Shown here: positions 23,049-25,909 of the stretch, in pieces
How positions within the stretch are numbered: the stretch's first letter is position 1
Layout: every line of letters begins with the position of its first letter
Assembly (NCBI RefSeq): GCF_000195755.1
Contig: NC_002937.3
Location: forward strand, 660,001 to 692,000
Direction of reading: 5' to 3'
Source: Nitratidesulfovibrio vulgaris str. Hildenborough
GTDB taxonomy: Bacteria; Desulfobacterota; Desulfovibrionia; Desulfovibrionales; Desulfovibrionaceae
Length of the DNA: 32,000 bases
Translations under genes and position numbers: made by a program
The notes under the pieces: generated by a model
The model's input: only the letters and a program-made list of their open reading frames with translations
Told to the model about the DNA's origin: nothing
Databases searched by the model: none

Positions 23049-23330
23049 TCATTCCTCGTCTTCGTCGTCGTACCACTCGTGTTCGAAGGCGTCGTCCAGA
23101 CGGTAGTTTCGTACCTGCATGAGCATGGAACCTTCCTGCTCACGGACAAGCCCTTCAACCACGACGTAGGCGTTGAGGTGACTGCCGAGGTCGATGCCCG
23201 CGCCTCGCGGCACGATGTGGTACTCGACATCACCTTCGGCAATGGCCACGCGTGCAGCCATGTCGTCACGCGAACGCGGCAGGGGAACGATGTAGCCTTT
23301 GACAGTCTTTACTTCTTCCATCTTGGTCAT
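23049..23330 (-). CDS. Small acidic cytoplasmic protein of unknown function (paralog A)
   Basis: 94 aa from ATG 23330: MTKMEEVKTVKGYIVPL...YVVVEGLVREQEGSMLMQVRNYRL...EWYDDEDEE. Codon usage looks genuine. It shares a motif pattern with the two upstream small ORFs. Confidence 0.6.
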   Translation of the reverse strand: MTKMEEVKTVKGYIVPLPRSRDDMAARVAIAEGDVEYHIVPRGAGIDLGSHLNAYVVVEGLVREQEGSMLMQVRNYRLDDAFEHEWYDDEDEE

Positions 23331-23509
23331 TGCGCTTCTCTCGAAACGGAAAACTGGTGCGGAGGTGGAGGTGTCTGCACAAGAGTGCGAAATATATTTC
23401 CTTTCGCGAAAAGGCAACAGTCGTAGGACATAAATCGGAAAATGGGTTTGTTTTTTTGGTTAAAGATAGCTATTTCAGACTGTTGTATAGATGATTTTTT
23501 GACGGATTT

Positions 23510-23905
23510 TCAGATGTGGTGCTGGCGTGGCATGAGTCCGTAACGTGCACCCGACATCTGGGGCTGCAACATGCTCTGCCCGTTATCCTCTTCGACGAGT
23601 GAATATCCCGTGACGTCCAGCGTGAAATACCCGTCTTCTATCTGTTCAGCCGTACCGGTGACGACGACTTCCTGCCCGTCGAGTTCAGTGTCCGTGACGC
23701 CGCGAAGCAGGAAAATCCTGTCATCCGGGGTTTCAAGAACCGGCCCGTCGTCGGTGACCACCACGATGCCGGTCACCACCACTTCAGACGCGGCTTCAGC
23801 CGGGGATTGGGCTGACAGTGCGTGGGCGGGGGCAAGCAGCATTGCTATAAGGACGACAAGACCCTTCAGAAGGGAGCGCCACCCGGAGTGATTGCTACGC
23901 ATCAT
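23510..23905 (-). CDS. Small secreted protein of unknown function (paralog B)
   Basis: 131 aa from ATGATG 23905, with AAGGAA 7 nt upstream. Signal peptide MMRSNHSGWRSLLKGLVVLIAMLLAPAHA|LSAQ. The mature part contains VVVTGIVVV... and VVVTGTAEQIEDGYFTLDVTGYSL. Its start overlaps the stop of paralog C by 11 nt. Confidence 0.6.
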   Translation of the reverse strand: MMRSNHSGWRSLLKGLVVLIAMLLAPAHALSAQSPAEAASEVVVTGIVVVTDDGPVLETPDDRIFLLRGVTDTELDGQEVVVTGTAEQIEDGYFTLDVTGYSLVEEDNGQSMLQPQMSGARYGLMPRQHHI

Positions 23906-24203
23906 GACGTTGTTCCTTGGCAGTGTCGCCCTCGACGACCACGTAGGTCGCAAGGTCGAAGTAGGTCTTACCCTGTCTGGAATAGATGTAACCGGTGGCC
24001 GCCACCTTGCAACGACATAGCCGAACGAGTTCAGGATAGTCACCAAGGTTGCCGACGATGAACTCCTGTTCGGAGTTGTCGGCGATAAGTACCGAAGATA
24101 CAGAATAATCATCAGCCCATCCTTCAGGAAGGATGTAGCCCGTTACGGTTGCAAGACCGTCTTGTGCGGCTATGGTCTGCGGCATGATGTTCCCTGTGTT
24201 CAT
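23895..24203 (-). CDS. Small cytoplasmic protein of unknown function (paralog C)
   Basis: 102 aa maximal ORF. The internal ATG 24185 (MPQTIAAQ..., preceded by AGGGAA) is the more plausible start, given the candidate sigma-54 promoter at 24228-24243. Contains TVTGYILPEG... and VAATGYIYSRQGKTYFDLATYVVVEG. Confidence 0.55.
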   Translation of the reverse strand: MNTGNIMPQTIAAQDGLATVTGYILPEGWADDYSVSSVLIADNSEQEFIVGNLGDYPELVRLCRCKVAATGYIYSRQGKTYFDLATYVVVEGDTAKEQRHDA

Positions 24204-24227: not shown

Positions 24228-24243
24228 AGCAGGAAACGGGCCA
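24228..24243 (-). promoter_or_regulatory. Candidate sigma-54 (-24/-12) promoter for the small-protein genes
   Basis: The minus strand reads TGGCCCG-TTTC-CTGCT, against the consensus TGGCACG-N4-TTGCW. GG (24242-24241) and GC (24230-24229) have the exact 10-nt spacing. It lies about 25-45 nt upstream of the two possible start codons and downstream of a sigma-54 activator gene. Confidence 0.55.
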
Positions 24244-24296: not shown

Positions 24297-24311
24297 AGAA
24301 CTTGGAGTTCT
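24297..24311. promoter_or_regulatory. AGAAC-N5-GTTCT palindrome (proximal copy), candidate activator binding site
   Basis: AGAACTTGGAGTTCT. Its centre is about 60 bp upstream of the -24 element. Confidence 0.45.
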
Positions 24312-24422: not shown

Positions 24423-24466
24423 AGAACTGAAGGTTCTTTTTTGTCTAGAGAAGAACTGTATGTTCT
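24423..24466. promoter_or_regulatory. Two further AGAAC-N5-GTTCT palindromes (distal pair), candidate activator binding sites
   Basis: AGAACTGAAGGTTCT (24423-24437) and AGAACTGTATGTTCT (24452-24466), centres 29 bp apart. The arms extend to AAGAAC/GTTCTT and GAAGAAC/GTTCTTC. They start 4 nt after the activator gene stop, and no U tract follows them on the minus strand. Confidence 0.45.
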
Positions 24467-24469
24467 TCT

Positions 24470-25909
24470 TTACTTCTTCAACCTGCCGCTACCGGGCTTG
24501 AAATCCTCTTTTTTCAGGCTGTGTCGGGTCATGAGCTTGTGTATCTGCCGGGTGGTGACCCCGGCGATGGCTGCTGCGCCTTTGATACTGCCCCCGCTGG
24601 TGGCGAGGGCGCGTTCCAGATACTCGCGTTCGAAGCTGTCCAGCGCATGACGGCGTGCGGCTTCAAGGGGCAGCGATATGTCAAGGGCGCGGTTGCGCAC
24701 TGCATGGGGCAGTCCCCTGAATTCTGCGGGAAAGGCTTCGGGCGACAGCACTTCTCCCCCTTCGAGGATGCAGGCGCGTTCGATGATGTTCTCAAGCTCA
24801 CGCACGTTGCCGGGCCAGTCGTAGCGCATGAAGGCGTCGATGACATCGGGGTGGATGGCCCGAATGTCACGTGAACGTTGCGGGTTGCAGCGCCTCACGA
24901 ACGCCTCTGCCAGCTGGAGGATGTCCTCTTTGCGTTCACGCAGCGGCGGGATGTCGATGGGAAAGACGTTCAGCCGGTAGTACAGGTCGCGCCTGAAGCG
25001 CCCCTGCGCACACAGGGTCGACAGGTCTTCGTTGGTGGCTGCCACGACGCGCACATCGGGCCGGATGACGGTCTCGCCGCCCACACGCTGGAAACATCTG
25101 TCCTGCAACACATTGAGGAGTTTGATTTGTACGGACGGGCCGATGGTGCCTATCTCGTCGAGGAAGATGGTCCCGCCTTCGGCGATCTCGAAACGCCCCG
25201 GCTTCTTGCGGATGGCGCCCGTGAAGGCACCTTTCTCGTGGCCGAAGAGTTCGCTCTCCACCAGCGCCTCCGGAATGGCCCCGCAGTGTACGCTGATGAA
25301 ACGTTTGCCGTGCCTGTTGCTGTGGCTGTGGATGAGGCGTGCGATGAGGCTCTTGCCCGTGCCGGTCTCGCCGGTGAGCAGCACGGTGCTGCGTGTGGCC
25401 GCCACGAGGCGTATCTTGTCATAGACCTCACGCATCCGGGGGCTGCGGGTGTCGAGTACGATGCCCTCGTCACCTCCGGAGCGGCCCTGTATCAGCCGGT
25501 CGCGCAGGTAGTCGAGTTCGGAGCGCACCAGCGCCGATTCGTGCAGCTTCTGGGTTACCAGCCGTACCTCTTCAGGGTGCAACGGGTAGGTGAGGTAGTT
25601 GCCTGCCCCGGCCCGCACGGCATCGACTGCCTGCCGGATGGCGTCGGCGCGGGCCAGCACGATGAGGTCGACGGAGGGATGCTGCTGTCTGAAGCCGTGG
25701 ACGGCCTGACGTATGGTCTCATAGTCCGTCGTGGTGCCGCCGCACAGGATGTCCATGTCCACAAGGGCGATGTCATGGGCGCGCGCGGCAAGGCGCGACT
25801 TCATCCCGGCGGTGGAACGACTCAGTTCGAGGTCGATGTCGGGAGTGAAGCAGCGTGGCAGGACGGCGAGGGCCGCAGGGTCCATGGTGGCAGCGAGCAC
25901 GTAGCGCAT
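24470..25909 (-). CDS. Sigma-54-dependent transcriptional activator (bEBP) with a degenerate receiver-like N-terminal domain
   Basis: 479 aa. AAA+ sigma-54 interaction domain (GETGTGKSLIARLIH, ESELFGHEKGAFTGA, RVVAATNEDL, FRRDLYYRLNVF) and a C-terminal Fis-type HTH (AAAIAGVTTRQIHKLMTRH). The N-terminal ~120 aa resemble a receiver but lack the DD pair and the conserved Lys. No kinase gene is adjacent. Confidence 0.9.
   Translation of the reverse strand: MRYVLAATMDPAALAVLPRCFTPDIDLELSRSTAGMKSRLAARAHDIALVDMDILCGGTTTDYETIRQAVHGFRQQHPSVDLIVLARADAIRQAVDAVRAGAGNYLTYPLHPEEVRLVTQKLHESALVRSELDYLRDRLIQGRSGGDEGIVLDTRSPRMREVYDKIRLVAATRSTVLLTGETGTGKSLIARLIHSHSNRHGKRFISVHCGAIPEALVESELFGHEKGAFTGAIRKKPGRFEIAEGGTIFLDEIGTIGPSVQIKLLNVLQDRCFQRVGGETVIRPDVRVVAATNEDLSTLCAQGRFRRDLYYRLNVFPIDIPPLRERKEDILQLAEAFVRRCNPQRSRDIRAIHPDVIDAFMRYDWPGNVRELENIIERACILEGGEVLSPEAFPAEFRGLPHAVRNRALDISLPLEAARRHALDSFEREYLERALATSGGSIKGAAAIAGVTTRQIHKLMTRHSLKKEDFKPGSGRLKK

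What the first reader, a model, noticed from the sequence alone, without database searches (positions are those of the whole stretch)
23049..24203. Three divergent paralogous small proteins (two cytoplasmic, one secreted) in a low-GC islet, no family recognised
The three ORFs (94, 131 and ~96-102 aa) share a pattern visible by eye.
- An N-terminal strand: T-V-[KT]-G-Y-I-[VL]-P in A and C, V-V-V-T-G-I-V-V in B.
- A short acidic turn followed by a hydrophobic strand: RVAIAE, SVLIAD, RIFLLRG.
- A second V-x-x-x-G strand: YVVVEGLV, KVAATGYI, EVVVTGTA.
- A closing [VL]-x-x-Y: VRNY, LATY, VTGY.
Each protein therefore looks like two V-x-G beta-hairpin half-repeats. Only B has a signal peptide (AHA|LS). 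The stop of C overlaps the start of B (ATGATGCGTAG), which suggests translational coupling. The islet is visibly AT-richer than its surroundings. I cannot assign the fold to any named family. A cytoplasmic-plus-periplasmic paralog set under a dedicated sigma-54 activator is unusual.
Basis: seen in the sequence. Interest (0 to 1): 0.7.

Follow-up and report, generated by a model that had tools for sequence, protein, structure and literature searches.

The report
Sigma-54-controlled small OB-fold stress proteins
The three small genes are real and encode related single-domain OB-fold (beta-barrel) proteins of unknown function; two of them (one cytoplasmic, one exported) form a sigma-54 operon switched on by the neighbouring activator, and this module recurs in many uncultured bacteria, where the same DNA switch also precedes chaperone genes.

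Summary
The window is Nitratidesulfovibrio (Desulfovibrio) vulgaris. The ORFs are C = DVU0617, B = DVU0616 and A = AAS95095.

There are three small acidic ORFs, only B has a signal peptide, C's stop overlaps B's start by 11 nt, and the GC dip is clear.

- The three proteins are homologous. An independent family profile scores A 75 bits, C 73 bits and B 21 bits, against at most 11 bits for shuffles.
- Each is one five-stranded OB-fold barrel, not two half-repeats.
- "No family recognised" is wrong for B, which is Pfam DUF5818. A and C belong to a large family (684 representatives) absent from Pfam and NCBIfam and distantly related to DUF5818.
- Only C and B sit behind the sigma-54 promoter and the three GAAC-N5-GTTC enhancer sites of activator DVU0619. 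That regulon was already predicted by Kazakov et al. 2015.
- A has no sigma-54 promoter or enhancer site.

New here: the module of a DVU0619-type activator (atypical receiver domain), tandem enhancer sites, a sigma-54 promoter and a cytoplasmic OB gene, often followed by a secreted OB gene, recurs in metagenomes. There the same enhancer architecture also precedes hsp20, groES, dksA-like and lysine-aminomutase genes. I infer a stress/proteostasis regulon. The biochemical role of the proteins is unknown.

The parts
24470..25909 (-). Sigma-54 enhancer-binding protein (DVU0619 type): atypical receiver domain, AAA+ sigma-54 interaction domain, Fis-type HTH
   Evidence: Pfam finds Sigma54_activat at 1.6e-67, AAA_lid_14 and HTH_8, with no Response_reg hit. 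The receiver lacks the DD pair and has Y in place of the conserved K in all 11 orthologues aligned. Full-length orthologues of 47-53% identity sit next to the same enhancer sites in metagenome contigs.
24452..24466 (.). Enhancer site 1 (AGAACATACAGTTCT palindrome as read on the minus strand)
   Evidence: Exact AGAAC-N5-GTTCT match. The only three matches in the 32 kb window all lie in this intergenic gap. Listed as a DVU0619 site at -282 in PMC4641369.
24423..24437 (.). Enhancer site 2 (AGAACCTTCAGTTCT as read on the minus strand), 14 nt from site 1
   Evidence: -253. The same tandem spacing (15 nt) is seen in L014, L016 and L022.
24297..24311 (.). Enhancer site 3 (AGAACTCCAAGTTCT as read on the minus strand), promoter-proximal
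   Evidence: -127.
24228..24243 (-). Sigma-54 (-24/-12) promoter TGGCCCGTTTCCTGCT
   Evidence: GG-N10-GC match. Listed as the DVU0617 sigma-54 promoter in PMC4641369. An orthologous TGGCCCGGTTCATGCT is present in L002.
23895..24203 (-). C (DVU0617): cytoplasmic acidic OB-fold protein, first gene of the sigma-54 operon (likely start at 24185, 96 aa)
   Evidence: Scores 72.6 bits against an independent family profile. pI 4.37. Orthologues occupy the same position in all Nitratidesulfovibrio loci fetched.
23510..23905 (-). B (DVU0616): exported DUF5818 OB-fold protein. Signal peptide is residues 1-29 (23819-23905) and the OB barrel is residues 41-103 (23597-23785).
   Evidence: Pfam PF19135 at 27.2 bits against a cutoff of 27; 14 of 14 orthologues hit it. 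In the AlphaFold model the domain has pLDDT about 90, with five strands and an N-terminal helix. Foldseek returns OB folds.
23049..23330 (-). A (AAS95095, Q72EG4): cytoplasmic acidic OB-fold protein of the PRGAG subfamily, with a conserved EHEWYDD acidic tail. Apparently a separate transcription unit.
   Evidence: AlphaFold pLDDT 86.6 with OB-fold topology. Foldseek returns RPA, Stn1, YgiW and AspRS-N domains at TM 0.45-0.57. Scores 75.1 bits against an independent profile. No sigma-54 promoter or enhancer site upstream.
23390..23420 (-). Conserved AT-rich promoter-like or operator-like element upstream of A (TTGCCTTTTCGCGAAAGGAAATATATTT)
   Evidence: Conserved in L002, L009, L010 and L012 upstream of A orthologues. 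The sigma-70 consensus scan did not call it, so its role as a promoter is inferred only.

Best explanation
**What is shown.** The locus encodes three homologous small acidic proteins (pI 4.4-4.6), each a single OB-fold beta-barrel. C (cytoplasmic) and B (exported, DUF5818) form one operon with overlapping stop and start codons. The operon follows a sigma-54 promoter, which appears to be activated by the adjacent enhancer-binding protein DVU0619 through three GAAC-N5-GTTC sites. A is a paralogue of a different subfamily with no sigma-54 promoter or enhancer site. The activator-C-B block looks inserted between RidA and A.

**What is inferred about the regulon.** The activator, the enhancer sites, the sigma-54 promoter and the cytoplasmic OB gene form a conserved unit in many uncultured bacteria. 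A secreted OB gene often follows. Because the same enhancer-plus-promoter architecture precedes hsp20, groES(-groEL), dksA-type and lysine-2,3-aminomutase genes in those organisms, the regulon is most likely a stress (heat, proteotoxic or osmotic) response.

**What is inferred about the activator.** Its receiver domain lacks the residues needed for normal phosphorylation. It is therefore probably switched by a ligand or a protein partner rather than by a kinase.

**What is inferred about the proteins (weakest step).** C and B are non-enzymatic binding proteins made on demand, one on each side of the inner membrane. They may protect or hold client molecules, or act as adaptors, in the manner of other small stress proteins encoded next to their regulators.
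For: **Genes and fold**
- Conservation across species.
- An exhaustive HMM search with the A+C profile finds 684 representatives at E <= 1e-3.
- Independent profile scores are A 75.1, C 72.6 and B 20.9 bits, against at most 11.3 bits for shuffles.
- hhalign of the A/C family against the B family gives probability 86.7%, E = 4e-6.
- AlphaFold OB-fold topology is seen for A and B. Foldseek top hits are all OB folds for both.
- No polar residue is invariant family-wide: the only invariant or near-invariant positions are G12, L48 and G60.

**Regulation**
- Three exact palindromes occur only in the gap between the activator and C.
- The sigma-54 promoter is present.
- The same sites and promoter are published as the DVU0619 regulon.
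- The order RidA<-EBP-C-B-A-MlaEFD is kept in six Nitratidesulfovibrio loci.

**Wider module**
- L014 has a 52.6% identical activator, three GGAAC-N5-GTTCC sites, TGGCATAATCTTTGCT and an OB gene.
- A metagenome scan with the tandem site gave 87 distinct loci. Fifteen have an OB-family gene within 700 bp, 14 of them downstream of the sites. Thirteen carry DVU0619 orthologues.
- The promoter lies 148-216 bp from the tandem sites, against about 180 bp in the window.
- A secreted OB gene follows the cytoplasmic one in L108, L079, L109, L034 and L075.

**Stress theme**
- Hsp20, Cpn10, DksA and LAM are the first genes behind the same architecture.
- In L022 divergent sigma-54 promoters drive groES-groEL and an OB-OB pair around shared sites.

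**Atypical receiver**.
Against: - No expression, binding or phenotype data for these genes were found. Only one held paper mentions them, and it lists their function as unknown.
- In D. vulgaris itself the published DVU0619 regulon holds only C-B, so the chaperone link is borrowed from other, unidentified organisms.
- The hsp20 case and the direct groES case are single distinct loci. The groESL case is one divergent locus seen on two similar contigs.
- The most frequent operon partner of the OB gene elsewhere is a lysine-aminomutase/ATP-grasp cluster, which points to small-molecule metabolism rather than proteostasis.
- Other family members sit in unrelated contexts without the enhancer sites.
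- About 70 of the 87 pattern-matched loci show neither an OB gene nor the activator. Some are plainly coding tandem repeats.
- B's Pfam score is only just at threshold.
Confidence: 0.6

Rival explanations
1. Feedback partner model. The cytoplasmic OB protein (C type) is not mainly a protective protein. It is the signal-transducing partner or anti-activator of the DVU0619-type activator, bound to its non-phosphorylatable receiver domain and released or titrated under stress. This would resemble PspA on PspF or ZraP on ZraSR. The exported paralogue B would report or buffer the periplasmic side.
For: - The OB gene is the single most frequent first target and is usually encoded immediately downstream of the activator gene.
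- The activator family lacks the DD pair and the conserved Lys of receivers in all 11 members aligned, and no kinase gene is adjacent in the window.
- From established knowledge, small proteins encoded next to stress regulators often feed back on them (PspA, ZraP, CpxP).
Against: - No interaction evidence exists.
- Several OB operons with the enhancer sites have no activator gene nearby (L016-L019, L022).
- Family members also occur with no sites at all.
- Two or three OB paralogues per operon are not expected for a simple anti-activator.
Confidence: 0.15
2. Nucleic-acid-binding model. The proteins are SSB-, RPA- or cold-shock-like OB-fold proteins that bind single-stranded DNA or RNA during stress.
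For: The best structural matches are RPA, Stn1/Ten1, SSB, PriB and the anticodon-binding domains of AspRS and LysRS. One of 130 family members weakly hits Pfam tRNA_anti-codon.
Against: - All three proteins are strongly acidic: pI 4.37-4.55, mature B 4.05, with D+E two to three times K+R.
- B and many relatives are exported.
- Foldseek E-values are all above 1e-3 with TM of about 0.3-0.57, so the match is to the fold only.
- No sequence-level match to any PDB chain.
- No basic residue is invariant or nearly invariant across the 130-sequence family alignment.
Confidence: 0.08
3. Small-molecule pathway accessory model. The OB protein serves the lysine-2,3-aminomutase/ATP-grasp(/GNAT) pathway that most often follows it elsewhere, for example as a carrier, a chaperone of the radical-SAM enzyme, or a binder of a beta-lysine-derived solute. 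In D. vulgaris only the OB genes remain.
For: An OB gene followed by LAM is seen in at least six distinct loci: L014/L054, L070, L093, L125, L050 and L016-L019. LAM is also a direct first target in L124 and L139.
Against: - Nitratidesulfovibrio has no LAM gene in the operon in the loci fetched.
- OB proteins in LAM operons lack the acidic C-terminal tail expected of a LysW-like carrier (sequences).
- OB genes also pair with groESL, zinc-ribbon genes and secreted OB genes.
Confidence: 0.1
4. Horizontally acquired selfish or defence cassette. The low-GC islet is a mobile, phage-derived or toxin-antitoxin-like insertion with no host physiological role.
For: Low GC and GC3 relative to the flanks. 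The activator-C-B block appears inserted between RidA and A when compared with L144.
Against: - The activator gene has normal GC (0.637).
- Synteny is stable across Nitratidesulfovibrio species.
- No PADLOC hit and no significant PHROG hit.
- I saw no integrase, repeat or tRNA gene beside the block in the ORF lists, although I ran no repeat or tRNA scan.
- The lowest GC is in the regulatory gaps, which is usual for sigma-54 enhancer regions.
Confidence: 0.03

Closest known systems
Pfam DUF5818 (PF19135), uncharacterised bacterial OB-fold domain
   Same: B matches at the gathering threshold and all its orthologues match. The secreted OB proteins that follow cytoplasmic ones in other loci have the same short b2-b3 layout. 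The A/C family aligns with the B family profile-to-profile, and 5 of 130 members hit the model weakly.
   Different: A and C give no hit even at E <= 10. They carry a longer b1-b2 loop (PxxWD in C, PLPRS in A) and a full helix between b3 and b4. The family has no known function, so membership explains nothing mechanistically.
BOF family periplasmic OB-fold stress proteins (E. coli YgiW, PDB 1nnx; YdeI)
   Same: These are small exported single OB barrels. From established knowledge they are stress-induced, and ygiW lies next to the qseBC regulator genes. 1nnx is among the best structural matches of the A model (TM 0.56/0.56).
   Different: No sequence or Pfam (PF04076) match. Foldseek E is only 7e-3. 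BOF proteins are not known to be sigma-54 dependent or to have cytoplasmic paralogues in the same operon.
ZraP-ZraSR, PspA-PspF and CpxP-CpxAR: small stress proteins encoded beside, and induced by, their own regulator
   Same: The logic is the same: a small non-enzymatic protein is the main target of an adjacent stress regulator. ZraR and PspF are sigma-54 activators, and PspF likewise is not controlled by phosphorylation.
   Different: The folds are unrelated (helical proteins against an OB barrel). Feedback was not tested here. This module has both a cytoplasmic and an exported member.
Published DVU0619 regulon (Kazakov et al. 2015, BMC Genomics 16:919, PMC4641369)
   Same: Identical promoter and three enhancer sites upstream of DVU0617-DVU0616, with orthologous pairs noted in D. 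vulgaris Miyazaki and D. salexigens.
   Different: That paper lists the function as unknown and calls DVU0619 a two-component response regulator. It does not describe the protein fold, the paralogy with A, the atypical receiver, the wider distribution, or the chaperone and LAM targets found here.

Membership tests
Pfam DUF5818 (PF19135) | Whole-protein HMM score at or above the gathering cutoff (27.0 bits) | tested here: met
   B scores 27.2 bits, E = 2.8e-6, over residues 45-100. All 14 of 14 B-family members hit, best E = 9.9e-7. The margin is narrow.
Pfam DUF5818 (PF19135) | The same criterion applied to A and C | tested here: not met
   No hit at E <= 10 for A, C or any of their 9 close homologues. 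Only remote similarity: hhalign probability 86.7%, and 5 of 130 family members hit weakly.
OB fold (five-stranded closed beta-barrel, b1-b2-b3-helix-b4-b5) | Strand order and a helix between b3 and b4 in a confident model, with structural neighbours that are OB folds | tested here: met
   A has strands 6-16, 28-32, 35-39, helix 43-51, strands 55-65 and 68-78, pLDDT 86.6. B has strands 41-51, 54-58, 64-68, a turn at 73-75, strands 79-90 and 93-103, domain pLDDT about 90. Foldseek hits for both are RPA, SSB, Stn1/Ten1, RMI2 and aaRS N-domains. C was not modelled; it is assigned by homology (72.6 bits).
New small OB-fold family (A/C type; not in Pfam or NCBIfam) | Significant match to a profile built without the query's own subfamily | tested here: met
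   A scores 75.1 bits and C 72.6 bits against 100 members that are under 33% identical to either. Shuffles score at most 11.3 bits. The exhaustive search gives 684 representatives at E <= 1e-3. No Pfam or NCBIfam hit.
Sigma-54-dependent operon with a cognate enhancer-binding protein | A -24 GG / -12 GC promoter at the correct spacing upstream of the first gene | tested here: met
   TGGCCCGTTTCCTGCT at 24228-24243, 25-40 nt upstream of the first ATG of C. Conserved in L002. Listed in PMC4641369.
Sigma-54-dependent operon with a cognate enhancer-binding protein | Upstream activator sequences, and an adjacent activator with an AAA+ sigma-54 interaction domain and an HTH | tested here: met
   Three exact palindromes occur only in this gap. 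Sigma54_activat at 1.6e-67 plus HTH_8. The same site type lies next to orthologous activators in 13 metagenome clusters.
Sigma-54-dependent operon with a cognate enhancer-binding protein | Transcription abolished without rpoN or the activator; activator binds the sites | not testable with these tools
   No experimental data found. The published assignment is computational.
Sigma-54-dependent operon (applied to gene A) | A -24/-12 promoter or enhancer sites upstream of A | tested here: not met
   No GG-N10-GC match and no GAAC-N5-GTTC site in the 187-nt gap upstream of A. The GG-N10-GC matches upstream of its Nitratidesulfovibrio orthologues are weak, score at most 7 of 11.
Canonical two-component receiver domain (for the activator) | Acidic pair after b1, phospho-acceptor Asp, Thr/Ser after b4, Lys after b5 | tested here: not met
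   Alignment with the canonical neighbour DVU0621 shows DD replaced by non-acidic residues and Lys replaced by Tyr in 11 of 11. Only the Asp is kept (10 of 11). Pfam Response_reg is not detected in the window protein.
BOF family (YgiW/YdeI, PF04076) | Pfam HMM match | tested here: not met
   No PF04076 hit for any of the three proteins or among the families most often matched by the 130 relatives. Only fold-level similarity to 1nnx.
SSB/RPA-type single-stranded nucleic-acid binders | Sequence-family match and a basic/aromatic binding surface | tested here: not met
   No SSB or RPA Pfam hit. No PDB sequence match. pI 4.4-4.6. Actual binding is not testable here.
Sec-exported protein (B) | Positively charged n-region, hydrophobic core, A-x-A cleavage motif | tested here: met
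   MMRSNHSGWRSLLKG / LVVLIAMLLAP / AHA|LS read directly from the sequence. Helix 7-23 in the model. Conserved in orthologues. No signal-peptide predictor was available, and export itself is untested.

The most novel reading that the evidence does not exclude
A widespread family of sigma-54 activators that does not depend on phosphorylation (DVU0619 type) controls a proteostasis or general-stress regulon (Hsp20, GroES/EL, DksA-type, beta-lysine pathway) in Desulfobacterota and other uncultured bacteria. Its signature first target, an undescribed small acidic OB-fold protein, often comes as a cytoplasmic-plus-periplasmic pair. That protein would be a new kind of stress protein that handles clients on both sides of the membrane, or that acts as the activator's sensing partner.
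Probability: 0.2. Interest if true: 0.8.

Novelty: new variant of a known kind. Interest (0 to 1): 0.55.

Why it matters
D. vulgaris Hildenborough has an unusually large set of sigma-54 activators, and the DVU0619 regulon is one of those listed with unknown function.

This work gives the two target genes a fold and a family. It also places them in a module conserved well beyond the genus and linked to chaperone genes. That turns two hypothetical proteins into a testable stress-response hypothesis.

It also defines a sizeable protein family (hundreds of 50%-identity clusters) that current domain databases miss.

Finally, it flags an activator subfamily whose receiver domain cannot work by standard phosphorylation. 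If the OB proteins prove to be chaperone-like or to be the activator's partner, this would be a new branch of bacterial stress signalling that uses sigma-54 in place of sigma-32 or HrcA.

Tried and rejected
1. Word-indexed homologue searches found only 7, 3 and 13 relatives, which wrongly suggested tiny families. Profile comparisons on those shallow alignments were inconclusive: probability 36%, 14% and 0.3%. The exhaustive HMM search resolved this.

I scanned with the enhancer-site DNA pattern instead.

3. I tested whether A belongs to the nitrite-reductase regulator's regulon, because A homologues sit right after the nrf kinase/regulator pair in four contigs. Upstream of A I found no convincing NrfR-type site (GTCA-N8-TGAC) and no consistent sigma-54 promoter; the only NrfR-like match there has 3 mismatches (L002). 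Other A-like genes have different neighbours. I therefore treat the adjacency as synteny.

4. I tested a universal "activator followed by OB gene" rule. It fails: P0196, P0143 and P0102 loci lack an adjacent activator, although the first two still carry the enhancer sites.

5. I considered a LysW-like amino-group carrier role, suggested by the acidic tails and the ATP-grasp neighbours. OB proteins in the LAM operons lack acidic C-termini, so I rejected it.

6. The internal-duplication reading has only an 11-residue strand motif in its favour.

7. Defence-system and phage libraries gave nothing. PDB sequence searches gave nothing.

8. The heat-shock transcriptome paper for this organism (PMC1426554) is not held, so induction by heat could not be checked.

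9. The sigma-70 and terminator scan found no terminator between B and A, and it did not call the conserved element upstream of A.
Full report
**Identity of the locus.** The window is from Nitratidesulfovibrio (formerly Desulfovibrio) vulgaris. C is 100% identical to a DP4 hypothetical protein. Exact look-ups give C = AAS95098 (DVU0617), B = AAS95097 (DVU_0616) and A = AAS95095 (Q72EG4).

Gene order on the minus strand (labels from the Pfam or tblastn matches):
- a sigma-54 enhancer-binding protein (EBP), 25909-24470
- C, 24203-23895
- B, 23905-23510
- A, 23330-23049
- an MlaE/MlaF/MlaD/auxiliary-lipoprotein ABC system, 22580-18940

Further along lie a divergent RidA-family gene, a second sigma-54 response regulator, a histidine kinase and nrfH.

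**The observation.**
- The ORFs are 93, 131 and 102 aa.
- C's stop and B's start overlap by 11 nt.
- Only B has an N-terminal signal-like segment, ending AHA|LS.
- ORF GC is 0.53-0.59, against 0.635-0.653 in the neighbours, and the two gaps are 0.41.
- All three proteins are acidic, pI 4.37-4.55.

**Are they homologous?**
- Pairwise BLASTP supports only A-C (E = 1e-3). A-B and C-B are not significant.
- Word-indexed searches found few relatives, and shallow profile comparisons were weak.
- An exhaustive HMM search with a combined A+C profile found 684 representatives at E <= 1e-3 and 54 at E <= 1e-10. These are proteins of 80-140 aa, many with long acidic tails and some with signal peptides. 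The consensus is TIxGxVxPxxWDxxxxVxxVxIxTxDExEYxVxxxGxGxELxxxxxxxVEVTGxVxxxxGxxxIxVxxYxV.
- The 130-sequence profile aligns with the B-family profile across the whole domain: 79 columns, probability 86.7%, E = 4e-6.
- A profile of 100 members, all under 33% identical to A and C, scores A 75.1, C 72.6 and B 20.9 bits. The best of 900 shuffled sequences scores 11.3 bits.

A and C are therefore clear members of one family, and B is a distant relative.

**Known families.**
- B reaches the gathering threshold of Pfam DUF5818 (27.2 vs 27.0 bits), and all 14 orthologues hit it.
- UniRef names B "Bacterial OB-fold domain-containing protein".
- A and C hit nothing in Pfam or NCBIfam.
- Five of the 130 relatives hit DUF5818 weakly.
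- No PDB chain matches either family by sequence.
- No defence-system hit and no significant phage-family hit.
- No held paper mentions DUF5818.

**Fold.**
- AlphaFold2 models A at pLDDT 86.6, with strands 6-16, 28-32 and 35-39, helix 43-51, and strands 55-65 and 68-78.
- B's domain (residues 41-103, pLDDT about 90) has the same five strands, with a short turn in place of the helix and an N-terminal helix that corresponds to the signal peptide.
- Foldseek against the PDB returns only OB folds for both: RPA, Stn1/Ten1, RMI2, SSB, PriB, the N-domains of AspRS and LysRS, and YgiW. TM is about 0.3-0.57, and no E-value is below 1e-3.
An N-half against C-half profile comparison matches only 11 residues, probability 23%.
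It is assigned by homology.

**Regulation.**
- The three exact AGAAC-N5-GTTCT palindromes in the 32 kb window all lie between the EBP gene and C, at 24452-24466, 24423-24437 and 24297-24311.
- A -24/-12 promoter, TGGCCCGTTTCCTGCT, lies at 24228-24243.
- Kazakov et al. 2015 (PMC4641369) list exactly these sites and this promoter as the regulon of EBP DVU0619, covering the operon DVU0617-DVU0616 with "function unknown". They report similar sites in D. vulgaris Miyazaki and D. salexigens. This part is therefore already a published computational prediction.
- A has no sigma-54 promoter and no such palindrome upstream. It has a conserved AT-rich element instead.
- In L010 a 287-codon ORF lies between B and A. 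L008 and L011 have a gap of similar size there.

**Synteny.**
- RidA<-EBP-C-B-A-MlaEFD is conserved in six Nitratidesulfovibrio loci.
- More distant A homologues (46-54% identity) occur without C, B or this EBP. In four contigs they lie right after the nrfHA-linked kinase/regulator pair. In one they are divergent from RidA. In another they lie next to an ornithine/arginine decarboxylase gene.
- The EBP-C-B block therefore looks inserted between RidA and A, which fits the low-GC "islet".

**The module is much wider than this genus.**
- A distant family member (P0085) lies directly downstream of an EBP 52.6% identical to DVU0619 over its full length, against 32.6% to the neighbouring DVU0621. 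Between them are three GGAAC-N5-GTTCC sites and the promoter TGGCATAATCTTTGCT.
- Two other OB loci with no adjacent EBP carry the same site pattern and a sigma-54 promoter.
- I scanned metagenome contigs for the tandem site GGAAC-N5-GTTCC, 14-16 nt, GGAAC-N5-GTTCC.
- Fifteen clusters have an OB-family ORF within 700 bp, and in 14 the sites are upstream of it.
- Thirteen clusters contain DVU0619 orthologues of 47-53% identity.
- Where a good sigma-54 promoter is present, it lies 148-216 bp from the tandem sites. The distance is about 180 bp in the window.
- Many of the remaining matches are unrelated. Some are coding tandem repeats.

**Operon partners and co-regulated genes.**
- Gene after the cytoplasmic OB: a secreted DUF5818-like OB gene in L108, L079, L109, L034 and L075 (overlapping start and stop in L034), as in D. 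vulgaris.
- Gene after the cytoplasmic OB: a lysine-2,3-aminomutase-type radical-SAM gene, with ATP-grasp genes also called downstream in the annotated loci, in at least six distinct loci.
- Gene after the cytoplasmic OB: a small treble-clef zinc-ribbon gene.
- First gene behind the same site-plus-promoter architecture: Hsp20, GroES (Cpn10), DksA-type proteins, LAM, DUF4301, and a 412-aa protein with no Pfam hit.
- In L022, divergent sigma-54 promoters drive groES-groEL on one side and two tandem OB genes on the other, around shared sites.

**The activator.** Aligned with the canonical receiver of DVU0621, DVU0619 and 10 orthologues lack the acidic pair after b1 and have Tyr in place of the conserved Lys (N-Y-L-T-Y-P). 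They keep the central Asp. Pfam does not detect Response_reg in the window protein, and no kinase gene is adjacent. I infer control by a ligand or a protein partner rather than by phosphotransfer. This differs from its published label as a two-component response regulator.

**Interpretation.**
- Shown: real genes; one OB-fold superfamily; a C-B operon with sigma-54 promoter elements and an adjacent cognate-type EBP; and a module conserved across many organisms, including the cytoplasmic/exported pairing.
- Inferred: the regulon is a stress response with a proteostasis and compatible-solute flavour. C and B would be non-enzymatic binding proteins acting on the two sides of the inner membrane.

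The strong negative charge and the export of B argue against nucleic-acid binding, despite the SSB/RPA structural neighbours. No polar residue is conserved family-wide, which argues against catalysis. A feedback-partner role for C on the EBP, in the manner of PspA/PspF or ZraP/ZraSR, remains possible but is untested. No expression or phenotype data were found, and the heat-shock transcriptome paper is not held.

**Verdict.**
- Observation: confirmed.
- Interpretation: partly supported.
- Already in databases or the literature: the family assignment for B and the sigma-54 regulation.
- New and testable: the fold, the A/C family, the atypical activator, the conserved cytoplasmic-plus-exported design, and the link to chaperone genes.
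- Interest: 0.55.
- Novelty: new variant of a known kind, namely small stress-regulated OB-fold proteins under a sigma-54 activator.

Noticed in passing
L001 6001-6261; L004 5034-5300; L006 4891-5157; L007 3370-3636: A-type homologues (46-54% identity) lie immediately downstream of the kinase plus sigma-54 response regulator pair that is divergent from nrfHA (cytochrome c nitrite reductase). No NrfR-type site and no consistent sigma-54 promoter was found in the gap, so the meaning of this repeated adjacency is open.
   Followed up: partly
L010 7438-8301 (a gap of similar size in L008 and L011): In some Nitratidesulfovibrio species a 287-codon ORF lies between B and A on the same strand. By eye its N-terminus resembles a class III extradiol (DODA-type) dioxygenase. 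I did not run it against Pfam.
   Followed up: no
window 23390-23420 (minus strand); L002, L009, L010, L012 upstream of A orthologues: A conserved element, TTGC(C/G)TTTTC-NNN-GAAAGG-(A/G)(A/G)-(T)AATAT, contains a short inverted repeat (CTTTTC/GAAAAG-like). It could be a sigma-70-type promoter with an overlapping operator. The consensus scan did not call it.
   Followed up: partly
L028 3283-4521 and the same cluster (L040, L046, L097, L107, L123, L136): A conserved 412-aa protein with no Pfam hit is the first gene behind tandem enhancer sites and a strong sigma-54 promoter (TGGCATGTTTGTTGCT). The sites lie about 95 bp after the stop codon of an OB-family gene.
   Followed up: partly
L014 5355-8766; L016-L019; L070, L093, L125, L124, L139: Lysine-2,3-aminomutase-type radical-SAM genes recurrently follow the OB gene or are direct sigma-54 targets. 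Where downstream genes were annotated (L014, L016-L018), they are followed by D-Ala-D-Ala-ligase-like ATP-grasp genes, plus a GNAT gene in L017. This may be a beta-lysine-derived solute pathway; its product is unknown.
   Followed up: partly
L022 2557-3741 (and L023): groES-groEL and a pair of OB genes are transcribed divergently from two sigma-54 promoters (TGGCATGGCCGTTGCC and TGGCATGGCTGTTGCG), with about six GAAC-N5-GTTC sites between them. The source organism is unidentified.
   Followed up: partly
L085 3900-4130; L057 1275-1440; L143 8120-8285; L042 5510-5615: The enhancer-site search pattern also matches perfect 30-nt-period tandem repeats, apparently repetitive coding or satellite sequence. 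These are unrelated to the regulon and inflate the number of loci without an OB gene.
   Followed up: yes
PMC4641369, supplementary file 2, compared with window 24470-25909 and 26695-28092: In the text copy of the paper's HTH alignment, the sequence of the EBP next to C (ALDSFEREYLERAL...) appears on the row labelled DVU0621. That of the second EBP (YKACAERAYVTRLL...) appears on the row labelled DVU0653. The row labels therefore seem shifted by one relative to the binding-site tables.
   Followed up: no
L020 4001-4315; L021: A secreted family member (P0102) without enhancer sites lies between a large MscK-type mechanosensitive channel gene and a thioredoxin gene, with trkA nearby. This is an osmotic/redox context distinct from the sigma-54 module.
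   Followed up: no
window 23996-24011 (plus strand): A sigma-54-like match, TGGCCGCCACCTTGCA, lies antisense within the C coding region. No enhancer sites serve it, so it is probably chance: 8 matches were found in the window against 3.7 expected.
   Followed up: no
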